Origin: an uncultured Ignavibacteria bacterium
GTDB taxonomy: Bacteria > Bacteroidota > Ignavibacteria > Ignavibacteriales > Ignavibacteriaceae
Direction: 5' to 3'
Length of the DNA: 64,000 bases
Assembly (NCBI GenBank): GCA_963721075.1
Contig: CAVRHV010000008.1
Coordinates: 8,057 to 72,056, forward strand
Shown here: positions 5,378-45,486 of the stretch, one piece after another
Layout of the letters: every line of letters begins with the position of its first letter
Position numbering within the stretch: the first letter of the stretch is position 1
Made by a program: the position numbers and the translations under genes
The notes under the pieces: model-generated
Database searches by the model: none
What the model was told of the DNA's origin: nothing
What the model saw: the letters and a program-made list of their open reading frames with translations, nothing else

Positions 5378-5764
5378 ATGTCTATAGGAAAAATTGGTTT
5401 CCTCGAAACCTACGCGCCGGATGATAATGGCGGTGTTATGGGCGCAATTCTTGTCACCGATGCGGATACAAAACCGCTGGAGTTCAGGGTAACGGCTCCG
5501 ATAAAAACTACCAACTTCCAGAAAACTTTATACGGAGACGTTCTTCTTGAGCACATCCTGGTAGAATTAATATCAGTCCCCCTGATAAATGCTCTGAATG
5601 AAGAGATTGATATAATACTGGTAAAAGATAATCTTTTCCTCGGAGCAAATAACAAGCAGGGCGTCAGAGTTGTCAGAGTTTCCGGAGATGACGATTTTCT
5701 GCTAAAACAAGTAAAGGTTCTCAGGAACTCAAGGCCTATAACGGCAGCGGAAAGATGTTCGTAG
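5378..5764 (+). CDS. hypothetical protein (128 aa), first gene of the SNF2/Mrr-like unit
   Basis: ORF preceded by AGAGAGG about 8 nt upstream. I recognise no family. A second open frame (5692-5907) continues to a TAATG junction with the next gene. Confidence 0.5.
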   Translation: MSIGKIGFLETYAPDDNGGVMGAILVTDADTKPLEFRVTAPIKTTNFQKTLYGDVLLEHILVELISVPLINALNEEIDIILVKDNLFLGANNKQGVRVVRVSGDDDFLLKQVKVLRNSRPITAAERCS

Positions 5765-41383: not shown

Positions 41384-43945
41384 ATGAAAGGTGTCAATAC
41401 AGTCATACGATGGTGGGTGGGATTTCTATCCATCATTCTTTTCCAATCGGCTTTGTTCGCTCAAAGCGGTATAAACGATATAGGCGGCTTTGAGCAGACC
41501 CTGCCCTCATACTGGAATATGACGTCAGCCCCTTCAGGTGCAACACTAACCTGGGCAACTGACGAATATCGTTCAATGGGTAAATCGCTGAAGATTGAAA
41601 AAACAGCCACAACAGACTCAGCTATGTGGCAATCGGATAATATGGTTGACCTCTGGTCGCAGAGACATTATGCTAATGTCGATATAAAGCTCGGAATGTA
41701 CTATATGACCTCAGGGGTAAATACCAATCCTGTCAATGAGGATGAGAAGTGGTATGTAGCTTATACATTCTATGACAGCTTAGATGCTGTGATAGGAGAA
41801 AAGAAATTTGAGCTGGATCAGAGCGTAGCCAGCACGAGCGGCTGGGTAGCAGATACCACAGCAATAGGAGAAGTTATACTACCGGAGGATGCATTCAAGA
41901 CGATCATCAGGTTTGTAGGAGGAAAGAATGCAACCGGAACCGTATGGACAGATGACTATATATTCGTAGGAAGAAACGGAGGTTGGGCAGGACAGGACTG
42001 GAACACAGCAGTAGGAGTGCCGACAGGCTGGTTCTACTGGCTGCCGCCGATCGGAGGAAATGATGGCGTATTAAATGCAGGATATGAAAATACAGTTGTT
42101 ACTGATGAGTATGCACATACAGGTAATTATTCGCTTAAATTTGATATTCCTGAAGGTTCGCATGACGGCTTTGTCGGAACAATTAAATATGCTCTTGATG
42201 ATGCACAGCCGGGCGATGTTCTGAGAATAAGTGTCTGGGTTAAGGGCGCTAATCTGGAGCCCGATTCTGTAATTGCAGTAGGTGATGCCTGGAGTGTTTC
42301 ACTTACAGCAATCTACCATACTACTATGGGAAATAATGCAGGGTTCGGAGATTATGCAGCCAGCCCTGACATCCCGCTCCAGTTCCCTCAAGCTACTGAA
42401 TTCGATTGGAGAAAGTTTTATGTCGATGTAACAATACCGGATCCTCCGGCTGGTGAGACAGCAAAATCGATTTCAGTAAGACTTCATCCTCTCGGCAGAT
42501 TCTCAGGTACTGTCTGGATGGATGATCTCCATATTGAAAAACTGGATCTTCCGGATCTCAATTCTATCGGAAGTTTCGAACAGGATCTTCCTTCATACTG
42601 GAATAAAGGTTCTGAGCCTGAGAATTCAACACTAACCTGGGCAACTGACGAATATCGTTCAATGGGTAAATCGCTGAAGATTGAAAAAACAGCCACAACA
42701 GACTCAGCTATGTGGCAATCGGATAATATGGTTGACCTCTGGTCGCAGAGACATTATGCTAATGTCGATATAAAGCTCGGAATGTACTATATGACCTCAG
42801 GGGTAAATACCAATCCTGTCAATGAGGATGAGAAGTGGTATGTAGCTTATACATTCTATGACAGCTTAGATGCTGTGATAGGAGAAAAGAAATTTGAGCT
42901 GGATCAGAGTGTAGCCAGCACGAGCGGCTGGGTAGCAGATACCACAGCAATAGGAGAAGTTATACTACCGGAGGATGCATTCAAGACGATCATCAGGTTT
43001 GTAGGAGGAAAGAATGCAACCGGAACCGTATGGACAGATGACTATATATTCGTAGGAAGAAACGGAGGCTGGGCAGGACAGGACTGGAACACAGCAGTAG
43101 GAGTGCCGACAGGCTGGTTCTACTGGCTGCCGCCGGTCGGAGGAAATGATGGTGTATTAAATGCAGGATATGAAAATACAGTTGTAACTGATGAATATGC
43201 ATACGATGGAAATTACTCGCTTAAATTTGATATCCCTGTCGGATCGCATGACGGCTTTGTGGGAACCAAAAAATTTACACTTGGTGATATTCAGCCAGGA
43301 GATGCGATAAGAGTAAGTGTCTGGGTTAAGGGCGCTAATCTGGAGCCCGATTCCGCAATTGCAGTAGGTGATGCCTGGAGTGTTTCACTTACAGCAATCT
43401 ACCATACTACTATGGGAAATAATGCAGGGTTCGGAGATTATGCAGCCAGCCCTGACGTACCACTCGAGTTCCCATATGCAACTGAGTTTGATTGGATGCA
43501 GTATCATGTTGATTTGATTGTGCCTGATCCCCCGGCTGGAGAAACGGCAAAGGCAATTTCAGTCAGATTACATCCGCTTGGAAGATTTTCCGGTACTGTA
43601 TGGATGGATTTACTTGAGGTAACAAAGGTTCCCGTCGGAGTTACCGAAGGAAAAGAATTCCAGCCTGTATCGTATAATTTATTCCAGAATTATCCGAACC
43701 CGTTCAATCCCACTACTATCATAAGCTACTCAATACCTAAAGTATCTCACGTTACTTTGAAGATATATGATATACTGGGTAGAGAGGTTAAAACTTTGGT
43801 GAGCGCTGATCAGAATAATGGAATCCATAGAGTTCAATGGAATGGAGACAATAACTATGGAACCAGAGTTTCCAGCGGTATATACCTCTACAGGATTGAA
43901 GCAGGTGATTTCATACAAACGAAGAAAATGATCCTGATTAAATAA
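41384..43945 (+). CDS. secreted surface protein made of two about 362-aa tandem modules (CBM-like jelly-roll suspected) plus a T9SS C-terminal sorting domain
   Basis: Signal peptide. Internal duplication. Tail 'NYPNPFNPTTIISY...IYDILGREV'. Confidence 0.85.
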   Translation: MKGVNTVIRWWVGFLSIILFQSALFAQSGINDIGGFEQTLPSYWNMTSAPSGATLTWATDEYRSMGKSLKIEKTATTDSAMWQSDNMVDLWSQRHYANVDIKLGMYYMTSGVNTNPVNEDEKWYVAYTFYDSLDAVIGEKKFELDQSVASTSGWVADTTAIGEVILPEDAFKTIIRFVGGKNATGTVWTDDYIFVGRNGGWAGQDWNTAVGVPTGWFYWLPPIGGNDGVLNAGYENTVVTDEYAHTGNYSLKFDIPEGSHDGFVGTIKYALDDAQPGDVLRISVWVKGANLEPDSVIAVGDAWSVSLTAIYHTTMGNNAGFGDYAASPDIPLQFPQATEFDWRKFYVDVTIPDPPAGETAKSISVRLHPLGRFSGTVWMDDLHIEKLDLPDLNSIGSFEQDLPSYWNKGSEPENSTLTWATDEYRSMGKSLKIEKTATTDSAMWQSDNMVDLWSQRHYANVDIKLGMYYMTSGVNTNPVNEDEKWYVAYTFYDSLDAVIGEKKFELDQSVASTSGWVADTTAIGEVILPEDAFKTIIRFVGGKNATGTVWTDDYIFVGRNGGWAGQDWNTAVGVPTGWFYWLPPVGGNDGVLNAGYENTVVTDEYAYDGNYSLKFDIPVGSHDGFVGTKKFTLGDIQPGDAIRVSVWVKGANLEPDSAIAVGDAWSVSLTAIYHTTMGNNAGFGDYAASPDVPLEFPYATEFDWMQYHVDLIVPDPPAGETAKAISVRLHPLGRFSGTVWMDLLEVTKVPVGVTEGKEFQPVSYNLFQNYPNPFNPTTIISYSIPKVSHVTLKIYDILGREVKTLVSADQNNGIHRVQWNGDNNYGTRVSSGIYLYRIEAGDFIQTKKMILIK
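41470..43630 (+). repeat. intragenic tandem duplication, period 1086 bp
   Basis: 41541... and 42627... read identically for hundreds of bases. I saw only three substitutions in the first about 520 bp. Divergence increases toward the 3' part of each unit. Confidence 0.9.
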
Positions 43946-43997
43946 CGACATATGTCGCCTCAGAAAAGATTAAATTAACAAAAAACTGAGGTGATAA

Positions 43998-44843
43998 ATG
44001 AATTTAAGAAGAAGCTTAATAAACAGACAGCAAATAAAAAGTTCGGAAGGAGAGTTCATCTGGGAATTAGAAAACTCATATGAACTCTCTCCGAAGTTAA
44101 GTTCATTAATACTAATAACAGCCAAAGAATGTTTAATAAGGGAGAATAATTTAAGAGAAGGACAAATAGAAGTTACAGTAATCGGGATAGAGGAAAGATC
44201 GGGAAAAGTAATAGAGAAGATGGAAAAGAAAAGAGTTAGGTTGACGATTGATAACGGTATAGAAGACCTGGAAGTTTTAAGGGAAAATGGAAGAGTAGAG
44301 CTGCGGAGAGTAAGGCTGCAGAGGATAAGCCAGGAAGCGATAGAACAGGAAGGAGTCGTAAGTCAAGAAGATTTATCCAAATATTTAGGATGCACAGTAA
44401 GGACTATTCAAAGAGATATAAGGATTATAAAAAAAGAAGGAATAGAAGTAGTAACCAGAGGATATATTCATAATATAGGCAGATGCCAGACACATAAAGT
44501 AAAAATAATAAGTATGATGTTAGATGGGATGACCTATAGTGAAATAAAACTAAGATCCAGACATTCGATAGGAGCAATAAAGAGATACATAGAAAGTTTT
44601 ACAAAAGTCGTAATGGCACAAAAAAAAGGGATATACAGAGTAAAAGATATAAGTGCAGTAACGGGTTTAAGTGAGGGATTAGTAAAACAGTACGTTGAGT
44701 TGCTGAAGGAAAGCAAAAAAGACAAAACAAGGAGAGAGAATCTCAAGCTATTGATAGAAAGAAACAGTTATAGAGAGCATATAAAAAAAACTGTAAAGAA
44801 GCATTCAGAGCCTCTGGCAGCTATGATGGGAGGCTTGTTATGA
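43998..44843 (+). CDS. multi-HTH protein of unknown function (DUF1670-like by recollection)
   Basis: Strong SD GAGGTGAT. HTH-like segments 'SQEDLSKYLGCTVRTIQRDIRIIKKEG', 'MTYSEIKLRSRHSIGAIKRYIESF' and 'VKDISAVTGLSEGLVKQYVELL'. Confidence 0.75.
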   Translation: MNLRRSLINRQQIKSSEGEFIWELENSYELSPKLSSLILITAKECLIRENNLREGQIEVTVIGIEERSGKVIEKMEKKRVRLTIDNGIEDLEVLRENGRVELRRVRLQRISQEAIEQEGVVSQEDLSKYLGCTVRTIQRDIRIIKKEGIEVVTRGYIHNIGRCQTHKVKIISMMLDGMTYSEIKLRSRHSIGAIKRYIESFTKVVMAQKKGIYRVKDISAVTGLSEGLVKQYVELLKESKKDKTRRENLKLLIERNSYREHIKKTVKKHSEPLAAMMGGLL

Positions 44844-45439
44844 GTTTAAATCAGACAAGAGATAGGTATGAAAGCATAAACAAAAGGAATTTTCATCAGG
44901 CAATAGTAAACCTGCTGGAGAATGAATATAAGATACTGGGGTCAAGAAAAGTACTGGATATGCTGGCAGACGATATAGAAGATCTGCACAGGGAATATTA
45001 TCCGGTAAGCAACCAGGTAGGGATCGGAGAAATAGTTTTCAGAACGACGAAGGATGATGGTCAACGACAGAATTATGGTAAGAAGACGGAAGATTATGCG
45101 GCAGTGACAGTAGTACTTCCACTGATAACCGAAGAAGATGTAGAAAGAAGAATCTTCTATAAGAAGGGAGACCGTAACAGTAATTATAAACACCGGGAAG
45201 CAAGAGATATAGAGACAATGGTAAGGTTGCTGAAGGCCGCCAAGGCACAGGGAGGATTACTAAGCGGAGCAGAGCTGAGTGTTTTAATGAATAGAAGCCT
45301 GACTTCAATAAGGAAATATTTAGATGCTTACAGAACAAAAACCGGAGAGATACTTCCATTGAAAGGATATGTGCTGGACCAGGGAAGTTTACCGACACAT
45401 AAAGGAATCATAATAAGTTTATATGAGCAGGTTAAGTAA
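44840..45439 (+). CDS. HTH protein of unknown function, paralogous to the C-terminal half of the preceding gene
   Basis: ATGA start/stop overlap. GGGAGG SD. 'LSGAELSVLMNRSLTSIRKYLDAYRTKTGEILPLKGYVLDQGSLPTHKGIIISL'. Confidence 0.75.
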   Translation: MSLNQTRDRYESINKRNFHQAIVNLLENEYKILGSRKVLDMLADDIEDLHREYYPVSNQVGIGEIVFRTTKDDGQRQNYGKKTEDYAAVTVVLPLITEEDVERRIFYKKGDRNSNYKHREARDIETMVRLLKAAKAQGGLLSGAELSVLMNRSLTSIRKYLDAYRTKTGEILPLKGYVLDQGSLPTHKGIIISLYEQVK

Positions 45440-45451
45440 GAAATGTAGTTA

Positions 45452-45486
45452 AGGGTGCTGATTATTCAGCACCCTATGTTTTTATT
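45452..45486 (+). terminator. hairpin terminator after the cassette
   Basis: AGGGTGCTG (45452-45460) / CAGCACCCT (45467-45475), followed by ATGTTTTTAT. Confidence 0.6.

What the first reader, a model, noticed from the sequence alone, without database searches (positions are those of the whole stretch)
43998..45439. The two cassette proteins are paralogues sharing an HTH-(R/K)GY-x-G-x3-THK-x2-IIS module
Aligning by eye:
- ORF1: 'RISQEAIEQEGVVSQEDLSKYLGCTVRTIQRDIRIIKKEGIEVVTRGYIHNIGRCQTHKVKIISMML'
- ORF2: 'RLLKAAKAQGGLLSGAELSVLMNRSLTSIRKYLDAYRTKTGEILPLKGYVLDQGSLPTHKGIIISLY'

Both have the same helix-turn-helix followed by an invariant GY...G...THK..IIS stretch. ORF1 then adds two more HTH-like segments. 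ORF2 has a distinct about 120-aa N-terminal domain.

A conserved His-Lys dyad immediately after a DNA-binding domain in both partners is not a signature of any regulator family I know. It could mark a catalytic or ligand site.
Basis: seen in the sequence. Interest (0 to 1): 0.6.

Follow-up and report, generated by a model that had tools for sequence, protein, structure and literature searches.

The report
Truncated DUF1670 jumping element, paralogous genes
The two overlapping genes are true paralogues of the unstudied DUF1670 family and are the only genes of a small jumping DNA element. The element inserts, to the base, at the last codon of genes for type IX-secreted proteins, yet contains no recognisable DNA-cutting enzyme; this copy has lost its right end.

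Summary
ORF1 (43998-44843) and ORF2 (44840-45439) both match Pfam DUF1670. They are homologous over their whole length, not only in the HTH/THK module.

ORF2 looks shorter only because this copy is cut off at 45431. Intact copies encode a 267-aa ORF2 with the same two extra HTH units as ORF1.

Across about 100 relatives that are at most 50% identical to each other, R-G...G...[S/T]-H-[K/R] is nearly invariant. The Tyr of 'GY' is not conserved.

The pair is not a regulator of the local glycan genes. It is the whole coding content of a 1.74-kb mobile element. Congeners hold 0-7 copies that are patchy and near-identical, and orthologous sites in relatives are empty. Both genes are under strong purifying selection (dN/dS 0.03-0.12).

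Insertion is highly specific. All 19 copies in genomes and 59 of 65 in metagenomes sit at the final Lys codon of a T9SS sorting-domain gene. The element supplies a new Lys and stop codon.

Structure prediction and fold search find only HTH/winged-helix arrays plus a small N-terminal domain with no known fold. No catalytic domain appears.

Whether the proteins cut and join DNA themselves or recruit a host enzyme is unresolved.

The parts
41384..43945 (+). Target gene: an 853-aa secreted protein ending in a T9SS C-terminal sorting domain (...TKKMILIK*)
   Evidence: ORF. Pfam Por_Secre_tail covers residues 770-850.
43919..43939 (+). Target-derived left flank ACG AAG AAA ATG ATC CTG ATT (T K K M I L I), the conserved sorting-domain end next to which all copies sit
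   Evidence: Orthologous empty sites in relatives carry the same stretch directly followed by Lys and stop.
43940..43945 (+). AAATAA, the Lys and stop codons supplied by the element. It now terminates the target gene.
   Evidence: The left hexamer is constant within each element subfamily, whereas the distal hexamer varies from copy to copy.
43946..43957 (+). Left-end palindrome CGACATATGTCG, part of the roughly 18-bp terminal inverted repeat
   Evidence: The palindrome sequence differs between subfamilies while its position is kept (CGACATATGTCG, GTGCCATTTGGCAC, GGAAGATCTTCC, GGTCATATGACC).
43949..44000 (+). RNA stem pairing the inner half of the left end with the Shine-Dalgarno sequence (GAGGTG) and the AUG of ORF1
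   Evidence: RNA fold -16.9 kcal/mol, z = -5.5. Equivalent stems with compensatory changes occur in three other subfamilies.
43998..44843 (+). orfA (ORF1), 281 aa, an intact DUF1670 protein
   Evidence: It is 99% identical in amino acids to the active-looking copies L003-L005. AlphaFold mean pLDDT is 88.5.
44457..44498 (+). ORF1 motif R154-G-Y-I-H-N-I-G161-R-C-Q-T165-H166-K167
   Evidence: Conservation. The helix starts at residue 166 in the model.
44840..45431 (+). orfB (ORF2), 3'-truncated. Only residues 1-197 are element-derived. The open frame runs on to 45439 in flank sequence.
   Evidence: Similarity to every other copy stops at 45429-45431, while those copies continue for about 250 bp.
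45362..45403 (+). ORF2 motif K175-G-Y-V-L-D-Q-G182-S-L-P-T186-H187-K188
45434..45439 (+). AAGTAA, the target gene's original Lys and stop codons, displaced to the far side of the element. It now supplies ORF2's stop codon.
   Evidence: The empty orthologous site in G009 reads ...CTGATT AAGTAA GAAATG..., identical to window 45434-45445.
45452..45485 (+). Intrinsic terminator of the target gene, now separated from it by the insertion
   Evidence: The same hairpin follows the stop codon directly at empty sites in G001, G004, G010 and G003.

Best explanation
ORF1 and ORF2 are the orfA/orfB pair of a DUF1670-type insertion element. Intact copies are about 1.74 kb. This copy has lost its last 250 bp or so, including the right end and the C-terminal 70 aa of OrfB, so it can no longer move.

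Shown:
- The element is mobile and multi-copy in sister genomes.
- Its ends carry a subfamily-specific 12-14-nt palindrome inside an 18-bp inverted repeat.
- It inserts in a fixed polarity at the 'AA' of the final Lys codon of genes that end in the T9SS sorting-domain motif KKM-x-L-x-K*.
- It brings its own AAATAA or AAATAG, so the target protein is unchanged. The original Lys and stop codons are displaced to the far end.

Inferred:
- The shared module is the DNA-binding core of the family. It comprises a winged-helix-like HTH, a conserved linker (R-G...D-I-G) and the S/T-H-K/R start of a second HTH. These most likely contact the DNA backbone or minor groove rather than bind a ligand.
- OrfA and OrfB act as a hetero-oligomer. 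Its six HTH units and two beta-hairpin N-domains would read the terminal palindromes and the roughly 20-bp target, and bring them together.

The chemical step is unresolved. I lean slightly towards catalysis by the same complex (about 35-40%) over recruitment of a host enzyme (about 35%).
For: - DUF1670 membership and full-length paralogy.
- Hundreds of 75-99% identical homologues lie almost only on 1-3-kb contigs, as collapsed repeats do.
- Copy number: three copies that are 99% identical in one MAG and at least six in another, all with different flanks. Within the genus there are 0-15 matches per genome, always in adjacent pairs.
- Empty sites were found for three sister copies and for the window's own insertion in five congeners.
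- Junction anatomy.
- Target: 19 of 19 genomic and 59 of 65 distinct metagenomic left junctions follow a T9SS sorting-domain end. Only 126 of 3391 long ORFs in this genome end that way.
- dN/dS is 0.03-0.12 for both genes.
- An IS-style stem sequesters the ribosome-binding site, with covariation across subfamilies.
- Both models are confident and contain only HTH/winged-helix units plus a small N-terminal domain.
- Fused two- and three-module proteins exist.
- Y1/IS200 and IS110 transposase genes are absent from genomes with recent bursts of the element.
Against: - No catalytic fold or motif of any known transposase or recombinase was found by Pfam, NCBIfam, PDB profile search or Foldseek. The enzymatic step therefore has no direct support.
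- H189, Y197, S225 and Y232 fit the ordinary 'S-x-x-[ST]-[IV]-x-R-[YW]' pattern of paired/Hin-type HTH recognition helices. This is my reading, not a test, but it means they need not be catalytic.
- No circle or tandem right-end/left-end junction was found in metagenome contigs.
- The exact crossover position (AA) is inferred from a comparison of copies, not observed.
- DNA binding itself is predicted, not measured.
Confidence: 0.75

Rival explanations
1. The OrfA/OrfB heteromer is itself a new kind of recombinase or transposase. The near-invariant polar residues (D90, R109, Q117, R154, S/T165-H166-K/R167, H189, Y197) would form its active site, so the reader's His-Lys dyad would be catalytic.
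For: - These are the only two genes in the element, they are under strong purifying selection, and they are always paired or fused.
- His residues that stay invariant across subfamilies with different DNA ends are odd for pure base readers.
- Genomes with fresh bursts of the element lack Y1 and IS110 enzymes.
- The family also occurs in an archaeon, Methanosarcina acetivorans (control line). A common host helper would therefore have to be near-universal.
- Translation of orfA is controlled in the style of a transposase gene.
Against: - Both models are confident and show only HTH or winged-helix units and a small helix/beta-hairpin domain. No structural neighbour is an enzyme.
- No member is fused to a catalytic domain.
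- To my knowledge, no enzyme built only of HTH modules is known.
- R154 is replaced by K or T in several OrfB proteins.
Confidence: 0.35
2. The proteins only bind and shape DNA at the element ends and the target. They recruit a host enzyme, such as a Xer-type recombinase, a topoisomerase or replication-repair machinery, to do the cutting and joining.
For: - Every search returns DNA-binding modules only.
- The palindromic ends flank a short spacer in the inferred joined form, like a recombinase core site.
- Solo-palindrome footprints and one subfamily whose gene cassette is flipped relative to the ends both fit recombination at the palindromes.
Against: - No candidate host enzyme was identified.
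- The ends and target do not resemble dif (my reading, not tested).
- Occurrence in both bacteria and archaea requires a very widespread helper.
- To my knowledge, no known host-enzyme-dependent element carries two dedicated proteins that are this well conserved.
Confidence: 0.35
3. The pair is passenger cargo of a non-autonomous element that is moved in trans by the transposase of another insertion sequence.
For: The element contains no recognisable transposase.
Against: - The pair is the conserved feature across about 960 clusters at 50% identity, and it is under purifying selection.
- Non-autonomous elements normally lose their ORFs.
- Y1 and IS110 transposases do not co-occur with the element.
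- The end palindromes change together with the protein subfamily.
Confidence: 0.07
4. The two genes are ordinary paralogous transcription regulators of the surrounding T9SS/TonB glycan locus.
For: HTH domains are present, and the genes lie between a secreted-protein gene and a TonB-dependent receptor gene.
Against: - Orthologous loci in five congeners lack the genes entirely. There the stop codon is followed directly by the terminator.
- Near-identical copies sit behind unrelated T9SS genes.
- This copy is truncated.
Confidence: 0.02

Closest known systems
Pfam DUF1670 (PF07900)
   Same: Both proteins are full members. Intact OrfB covers profile positions 1-220, and OrfA covers 17-220.
   Different: The family is annotated only as 'unknown function'. 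I found no paper that mentions it. Its role as the gene content of a mobile element is not part of the family description.
Tn7 TnsD/attTn7 targeting (from my own knowledge of the system)
   Same: A sequence-specific DNA-binding protein reads the conserved 3' coding end of a gene and directs insertion, in one orientation, at or after the stop codon. The host gene stays intact.
   Different: Tn7 has a separate TnsA/TnsB transposase, the TnsC ATPase and a 5-bp target duplication, and it uses a single site per genome. Here no transposase is recognisable, there is no clear duplication, and the target is a family of more than 100 sites (126 in this genome).
IS630 / Tc1-mariner insertion sequences
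   Same: Small elements bounded by terminal inverted repeats. They have paired-type multi-HTH DNA-binding regions and insert at a fixed dinucleotide (TA there, apparently AA here). Weak HTH_23/28/29 Pfam hits were seen.
   Different: There is no DDE/RNase-H catalytic domain by sequence or fold. The element has two paralogous genes instead of one, and a roughly 20-bp target requirement.
IS110/IS1111 and IS200/IS605 families
   Same: Site-specific, orientation-specific insertion without a classical target duplication, with palindromic or hairpin-forming ends.
   Different: There is no DEDD or Y1-HUH domain in the element. Those enzymes are absent from genomes with recent bursts of the element. 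No bridge-RNA-sized non-coding region exists, and there is no Rfam hit.
Serine invertases/resolvases (Hin, gamma-delta)
   Same: A small N-terminal domain, then a long helix, then an Arg-Gly arm preceding an HTH. This resemblance is my own reading of the sequence pattern.
   Different: The N-terminal domain has a different fold (three helices plus a beta-hairpin), there is no conserved Ser nucleophile, and Foldseek found no match.

Membership tests
Pfam DUF1670 (PF07900) | Score above the curated cut-off (25 bits) against the family profile | tested here: met
   ORF1 scores 155 bits, window ORF2 98.6 bits and intact ORF2 165 bits over profile positions 1-220 of 220.
Insertion sequence (generic) | Several near-identical copies with unrelated flanks in one genome | tested here: met
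   L003-L005 are 99% identical. L006, L008-L010, L012 and L023 are 99-100% identical, and all flanks differ. The window's own genome holds only this one truncated copy.
Insertion sequence (generic) | Empty orthologous sites | tested here: met
Insertion sequence (generic) | Defined terminal inverted repeats | tested here: met
   Intact copies have a repeat of about 18 bp containing a palindrome. The window copy has only the left end.
Insertion sequence (generic) | Target-site duplication | tested here: inconclusive
   AARTAR occurs on both sides, but the left copy is constant within a subfamily while the right copy varies. At most the dinucleotide AA can be a true duplication.
Insertion sequence (generic) | Encodes its own transposase | tested here: inconclusive
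   The only genes are orfA and orfB, and no known catalytic domain is present.
DDE transposases (IS630/Tc1 and others) | RNase-H-like fold with a D-D-E/D triad | tested here: not met
   No Pfam or NCBIfam hit and no Foldseek neighbour. The models are all-helical apart from one beta-hairpin.
Tyrosine or serine site-specific recombinases | Catalytic domain fold with R-K-H-R-H/W-Y residues or a Ser nucleophile | tested here: not met
   No sequence or fold match. No invariant Ser occurs in the N-terminal domain.
IS200/IS605 (Y1 HUH) | Y1_Tnp domain in the element or available in the genome | tested here: not met
   The domain is absent from the element. PF01797 is absent from G010, G001, G008 and G011, which carry multiple copies.
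IS110/IS1111 | DEDD transposase and a non-coding bridge RNA region | tested here: not met
   PF01548 is absent from the element and from G001, and only a fragment is present in G010. Non-coding ends are about 55 and 40 nt, and there is no Rfam hit.

The most novel reading that the evidence does not exclude
DUF1670 OrfA/OrfB form a previously unrecognised class of DNA recombinase or transposase. It would be built from helix-turn-helix modules and a small domain with a new fold, with the invariant S/T-H-K/R, H189, D90 and R109 residues in its active site. It would be programmed to land on the last codon of T9SS cargo genes while rebuilding that codon.
Probability: 0.3. Interest if true: 0.92.

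Novelty: new variant of a known kind. Interest (0 to 1): 0.7.

Why it matters
A widespread mobile element with no recognisable transposase implies one of two things. Either there is an undiscovered way of cutting and joining DNA, or there is an unknown way of hijacking host enzymes. Both would interest the mobile-DNA and genome-engineering fields.

The targeting is also notable. The element reads a roughly 20-bp protein-coding motif shared by more than 100 genes per genome, and it restores the codon it interrupts. That makes it a natural 'safe-harbour' insertion system.

There are practical consequences too. DUF1670 pairs should be annotated as mobile-element genes, not regulators. They break short-read assemblies. 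They also separate T9SS cargo genes from their terminators, as seen here just upstream of a TonB-dependent receptor gene.

Tried and rejected
- Literature searches for DUF1670, PF07900, and T9SS with insertion sequence found nothing relevant.
- Plasmid and phage collections held no homologue.
- A PDB profile search and two Foldseek searches (whole ORF1 and the N-terminal domain alone) returned only weak HTH, winged-helix, HU or IHF-like hits, with E above 0.1.
- Longer family members were checked for fusion to a catalytic domain. None was found.
- An Rfam scan of an intact element gave no hit.
- A scan of metagenome contigs for an abutting right-end/left-end junction (circle or tandem) found none.
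- A sigma-70 promoter scan found nothing upstream of ORF1. That model may not suit this phylum.
- I considered a tyrosine-recombinase-like reading of R/H/K/H/Y with the H189-x7-Y197 spacing. I dropped it because the fold does not match, and because H189, Y197, S225 and Y232 repeat as an ordinary HTH pattern in the second and third HTH units.
- I considered insertion into a pre-existing hairpin, with solo palindromes as the targets. I rejected this for the present subfamily. Eight empty sites have no palindrome. Solo palindromes are also rarer than full elements.
- The inverted repeats around 43567 and 45524 are chance matches, since the true right end is deleted.
Full report
**1. The observation**

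- The window has ORF1 at 43998-44843 (281 aa) and ORF2 at 44840-45439 (199 aa) on the + strand, overlapping by ATGA.
- BLASTP of one against the other gives 27% identity over 66 residues, E=1e-4.
- Both hit Pfam DUF1670 (PF07900) far above its cut-off: 155 and 98.6 bits. NCBIfam gives nothing meaningful.
- So the paralogy is real and not a chance resemblance.

**2. The window copy is truncated, which changes the picture of ORF2**

- A scan of species-representative genomes found 30 related loci, mostly in Ignavibacteria/Bacteroidota-type MAGs.
- DNA similarity of every one of them to the window ends at 45429-45431, eight bases before ORF2's stop.
- The other copies continue for about 250 bp. 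There ORF2 runs on as ...SLYEQG(V/I)SPADIVLKTSHSQ.AVDRYIK...ITGRS.KVVREYIKLY....
- Intact ORF2 is 267 aa and covers DUF1670 positions 1-220 of 220 (E 2e-48).
- It aligns with ORF1 over 132 residues (E 3e-13). It aligns with a family profile over 242 columns, including the N-terminal region (99.9% probability, E 1.6e-34).

**3. Motif conservation**

- An exhaustive search against 1.84 billion cluster representatives found 958 clusters at E<1e-3.
- In an alignment of 99 full-length members, which are at most 50% identical to each other, the conserved positions (ORF1 numbering) are:
  - R154 99%
  - G155 91%
  - G161 98%
  - S/T165 98%
  - H166 98%
  - K/R167 99%
- Further near-invariant positions are G55, G69, D90, R109, Q117, D125, T136, H189, Y197, F201, S225 and Y232.
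- The Tyr after G155 is not conserved (Q 25, Y 13, T 11 and others).
- I compared OrfA-type and OrfB-type proteins from seven subfamilies. S/T-H-K/R, H189 and Y197 are kept in both. R154 becomes K or T in several OrfB proteins.

**4. What the pair is: the coding content of a mobile element**

- The first homology search returned 850 proteins. The top 120 are 75-99% identical and lie almost exclusively on contigs of 1-3 kb. The same holds for more distant clusters. This is the signature of a repeat that breaks short-read assemblies.
- In long-read MAGs the element is multi-copy. One MAG has three copies whose ORF1 is 99% identical to the window's, plus one at 76%. Another MAG has at least six copies that are 99-100% identical to each other. 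Each copy has different flanks.
- Among 61 relatives, 19 carry DUF1670, with 0 to 15 matches per genome within one genus. Matches always come as adjacent same-strand pairs unless cut by a contig end.
- Only 9 of 301 genomes sampled across the phylum have it. The window's own genome has only this copy.
- Intact elements are about 1.74 kb and contain nothing but orfA and orfB.
- Three sister insertions have empty sites in the window's genome.
- The window's own insertion is absent from the orthologous locus in five congeners. There the T9SS gene's stop is followed directly by the terminator and the TonB-dependent receptor gene.
- dN/dS is 0.03-0.05 between the window copy and its closest relatives, and 0.03-0.12 between subfamilies. 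Both proteins are therefore maintained by selection.

**5. Ends and target**

- Left junctions read ...K-K-M-x-L-x | AAATAA-CGACATATGTCG-CCTCAG... in the window's subfamily.
- In a second subfamily they read AAATAG-TGCCATTTGGCAC-CTCAA...
- Right ends read ...CCAGG-CGACAAATGTCG-TAATAGT-AARTAR | flank, or ...GGTGCCAAATGGCCC-TATAGT-AARTAR | flank.
- A third subfamily, 38% identical in protein, has the same layout with the palindrome GGAAGATCTTCC.
- A fourth subfamily, about 26% identical, has the same end and target layout, but its gene pair is inverted relative to the ends.
- The hexamer next to the target gene is constant within a subfamily. The distal hexamer varies from copy to copy (AAATAA, AAGTAA, AAATAG, AAGTAG, AAGTGA). 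Its variation resembles the Lys-plus-stop usage at the 126 T9SS gene ends of this genome.
- I infer that the element carries its own Lys and stop codons and joins at the AA of the final Lys codon, pushing the original Lys and stop to its far end.
- The window fits this model:
  - The left side has AAATAA at 43940-43945.
  - The right side has AAGTAA at 45434-45439.
  - An empty orthologous site reads CTGATT-AAGTAA-GAAATG.
  - ORF2's present stop codon is thus the T9SS gene's original stop.

**6. Target specificity**

- All 19 genomic copies examined follow a gene end encoding a T9SS C-terminal sorting domain. Pfam Por_Secre_tail confirms this for two of them.
- An independent scan of metagenome contigs for the left-end pattern gave 65 distinct evaluable junctions. 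Of these, 52 pass a strict KKM-x-L-x test. Seven more are plainly the same domain (G-I-Y-F-Y-R...K-M-L-L), giving 59 of 65.
- Only 126 of 3391 long ORFs in this genome end that way.
- Occupied sites match the consensus ACN-AAR-AAR-ATG-NTN-YTN-ATG more closely than the background does. The downstream flank is not conserved.

**7. Other element features**

- In RNA, the inner half of the left-end palindrome pairs with the Shine-Dalgarno sequence and start codon of orfA (z-scores -5.5, -6.1, -8.1 and -2.5 in four subfamilies, with compensatory changes). From my own knowledge of IS10 and IS50, this is the classic device that blocks translation of read-through transcripts.
- Seven 'solo' units of the form AAATAA-palindrome-TAAYAGT-AARTAR occur in four of the ten genomes of the genus searched, and two more lie in right flanks. 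They look like products of recombination or deletion between the two end palindromes.
- No structured RNA family is detected.

**8. What the proteins look like**

- AlphaFold2 with an 88-sequence alignment gives mean pLDDT 88.5 for ORF1. The predicted layout is:
  - three N-terminal helices
  - a long beta-hairpin (56-63 and 77-83) whose tip carries the conserved E-P-x-G-K
  - a long helix (88-116)
  - an HTH_11-type HTH (123-146)
  - a linker holding R154-G155...G161
  - a second HTH starting at H166 (166-175, 180-187, 191-209)
  - a third HTH (215-241)
  - a final helix
- Foldseek against the PDB finds nothing better than E=0.1. The top hits are tandem winged-helix arrays (SelB WH2-4, MntR/IdeR, Mga).
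- The N-terminal 120 residues modelled alone reach pLDDT 94.2. They have no significant neighbour either (best E 0.6), with faint HU/IHF-like hits.
- A family profile against PDB sequences finds only HTH proteins.
- Longer family members are two- or three-fold repeats of DUF1670. None is fused to a catalytic domain.
- S/T165 sits where a helix N-cap would be, and H166-K167 are in the first turn of the first helix of the second HTH.
- The pattern G-R/P-G-x-S-H-K-x-x-I-V-x-L-Y-x-x-G-x-x-x-x-E-I-x(5)-H-S-x-x-S-I-x-R-Y resembles the arm-plus-HTH of Hin and paired-type domains. This resemblance is my recollection and was not tested.
- On that reading the His-Lys dyad is more likely a DNA-backbone or minor-groove contact than a ligand site. 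Its invariance across subfamilies with different DNA ends keeps a catalytic role open.

**9. Who does the chemistry?**

- The element contains nothing identifiable as a catalytic enzyme.
- Mobilisation in trans by IS200/IS605 or IS110 enzymes is unlikely. Y1_Tnp is absent from four genomes with multiple copies, and it is present in three of the four DUF1670-free genomes tested. The IS110 DEDD domain is absent from one genome with five copies and only fragmentary in another with seven.
- The remaining options are self-catalysis by a new kind of enzyme or recruitment of a near-universal host enzyme. I cannot separate them computationally. I put them at roughly 35% each and the rest on other arrangements.

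**10. Prior knowledge**

- No paper in the searchable library mentions DUF1670 or PF07900. None describes an insertion sequence aimed at T9SS gene ends.
- After I had reached the conclusions above, the scan's own notes showed that other agents had independently flagged DUF1670 pairs as an undescribed mobile element in at least 28 genomes. Two of them reported the T9SS last-codon target.
- Those notes agree with my results. I treat them as leads, not evidence.

**11. Verdict**

- The interpretation misses the main point. This is a 3'-truncated, immobilised copy of a site-specific insertion element of an undescribed family.
- The motif is the core of Pfam DUF1670. No evidence yet places it in an active site.

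Noticed in passing
L019:1932-3943: A group II intron is inserted exactly at AAAT^AGTG, the junction between a T9SS gene's stop region and the left end of a DUF1670 element. Rfam RF02005 and RF00029 match, and a 444-aa reverse-transcriptase-like ORF is present. T9SS gene ends may be a landing site for more than one kind of mobile element.
   Followed up: partly
L009:~5683-5710; L012:~5716-5745; G003, G008, G010, G014: Solo units of the form AAATAA-[12-nt palindrome]-TAAYAGT-AARTAR occur without any genes. They look like footprints left by recombination or deletion between the two end palindromes of DUF1670 elements.
   Followed up: partly
L033-L039, L049: In one subfamily (287 and 317 aa, about 26% identity) the ends and target have the same polarity as elsewhere, but the orfA-orfB cassette is flipped relative to them. 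An inversion between the palindromic ends would give this arrangement.
   Followed up: partly
L020, L025-L031, L011/L047, window 45431: Copies that keep the left end but are truncated at the 3' side are common. Some retain only the first 30-70 codons of orfA. The window's deletion ends within one or two bases of where the element's right terminus should be.
   Followed up: no
L071:2687; L095:1164 (reverse strand): Two metagenomic left junctions follow ORFs ending ...(F/L)DTNY-K* rather than a T9SS sorting-domain end. This may be a second target type or an off-target insertion.
   Followed up: no
window 41384-43945: The target T9SS cargo gene contains two almost identical modules of about 360 aa in tandem (visible in the translation). 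This is a recent internal duplication.
   Followed up: no
L032:1309-2487: A left-end fragment of a DUF1670 element (first 30 codons of orfA) is interrupted by sequence that matches a repeated region on contig C16 of the window's genome. This is probably another mobile element.
   Followed up: no
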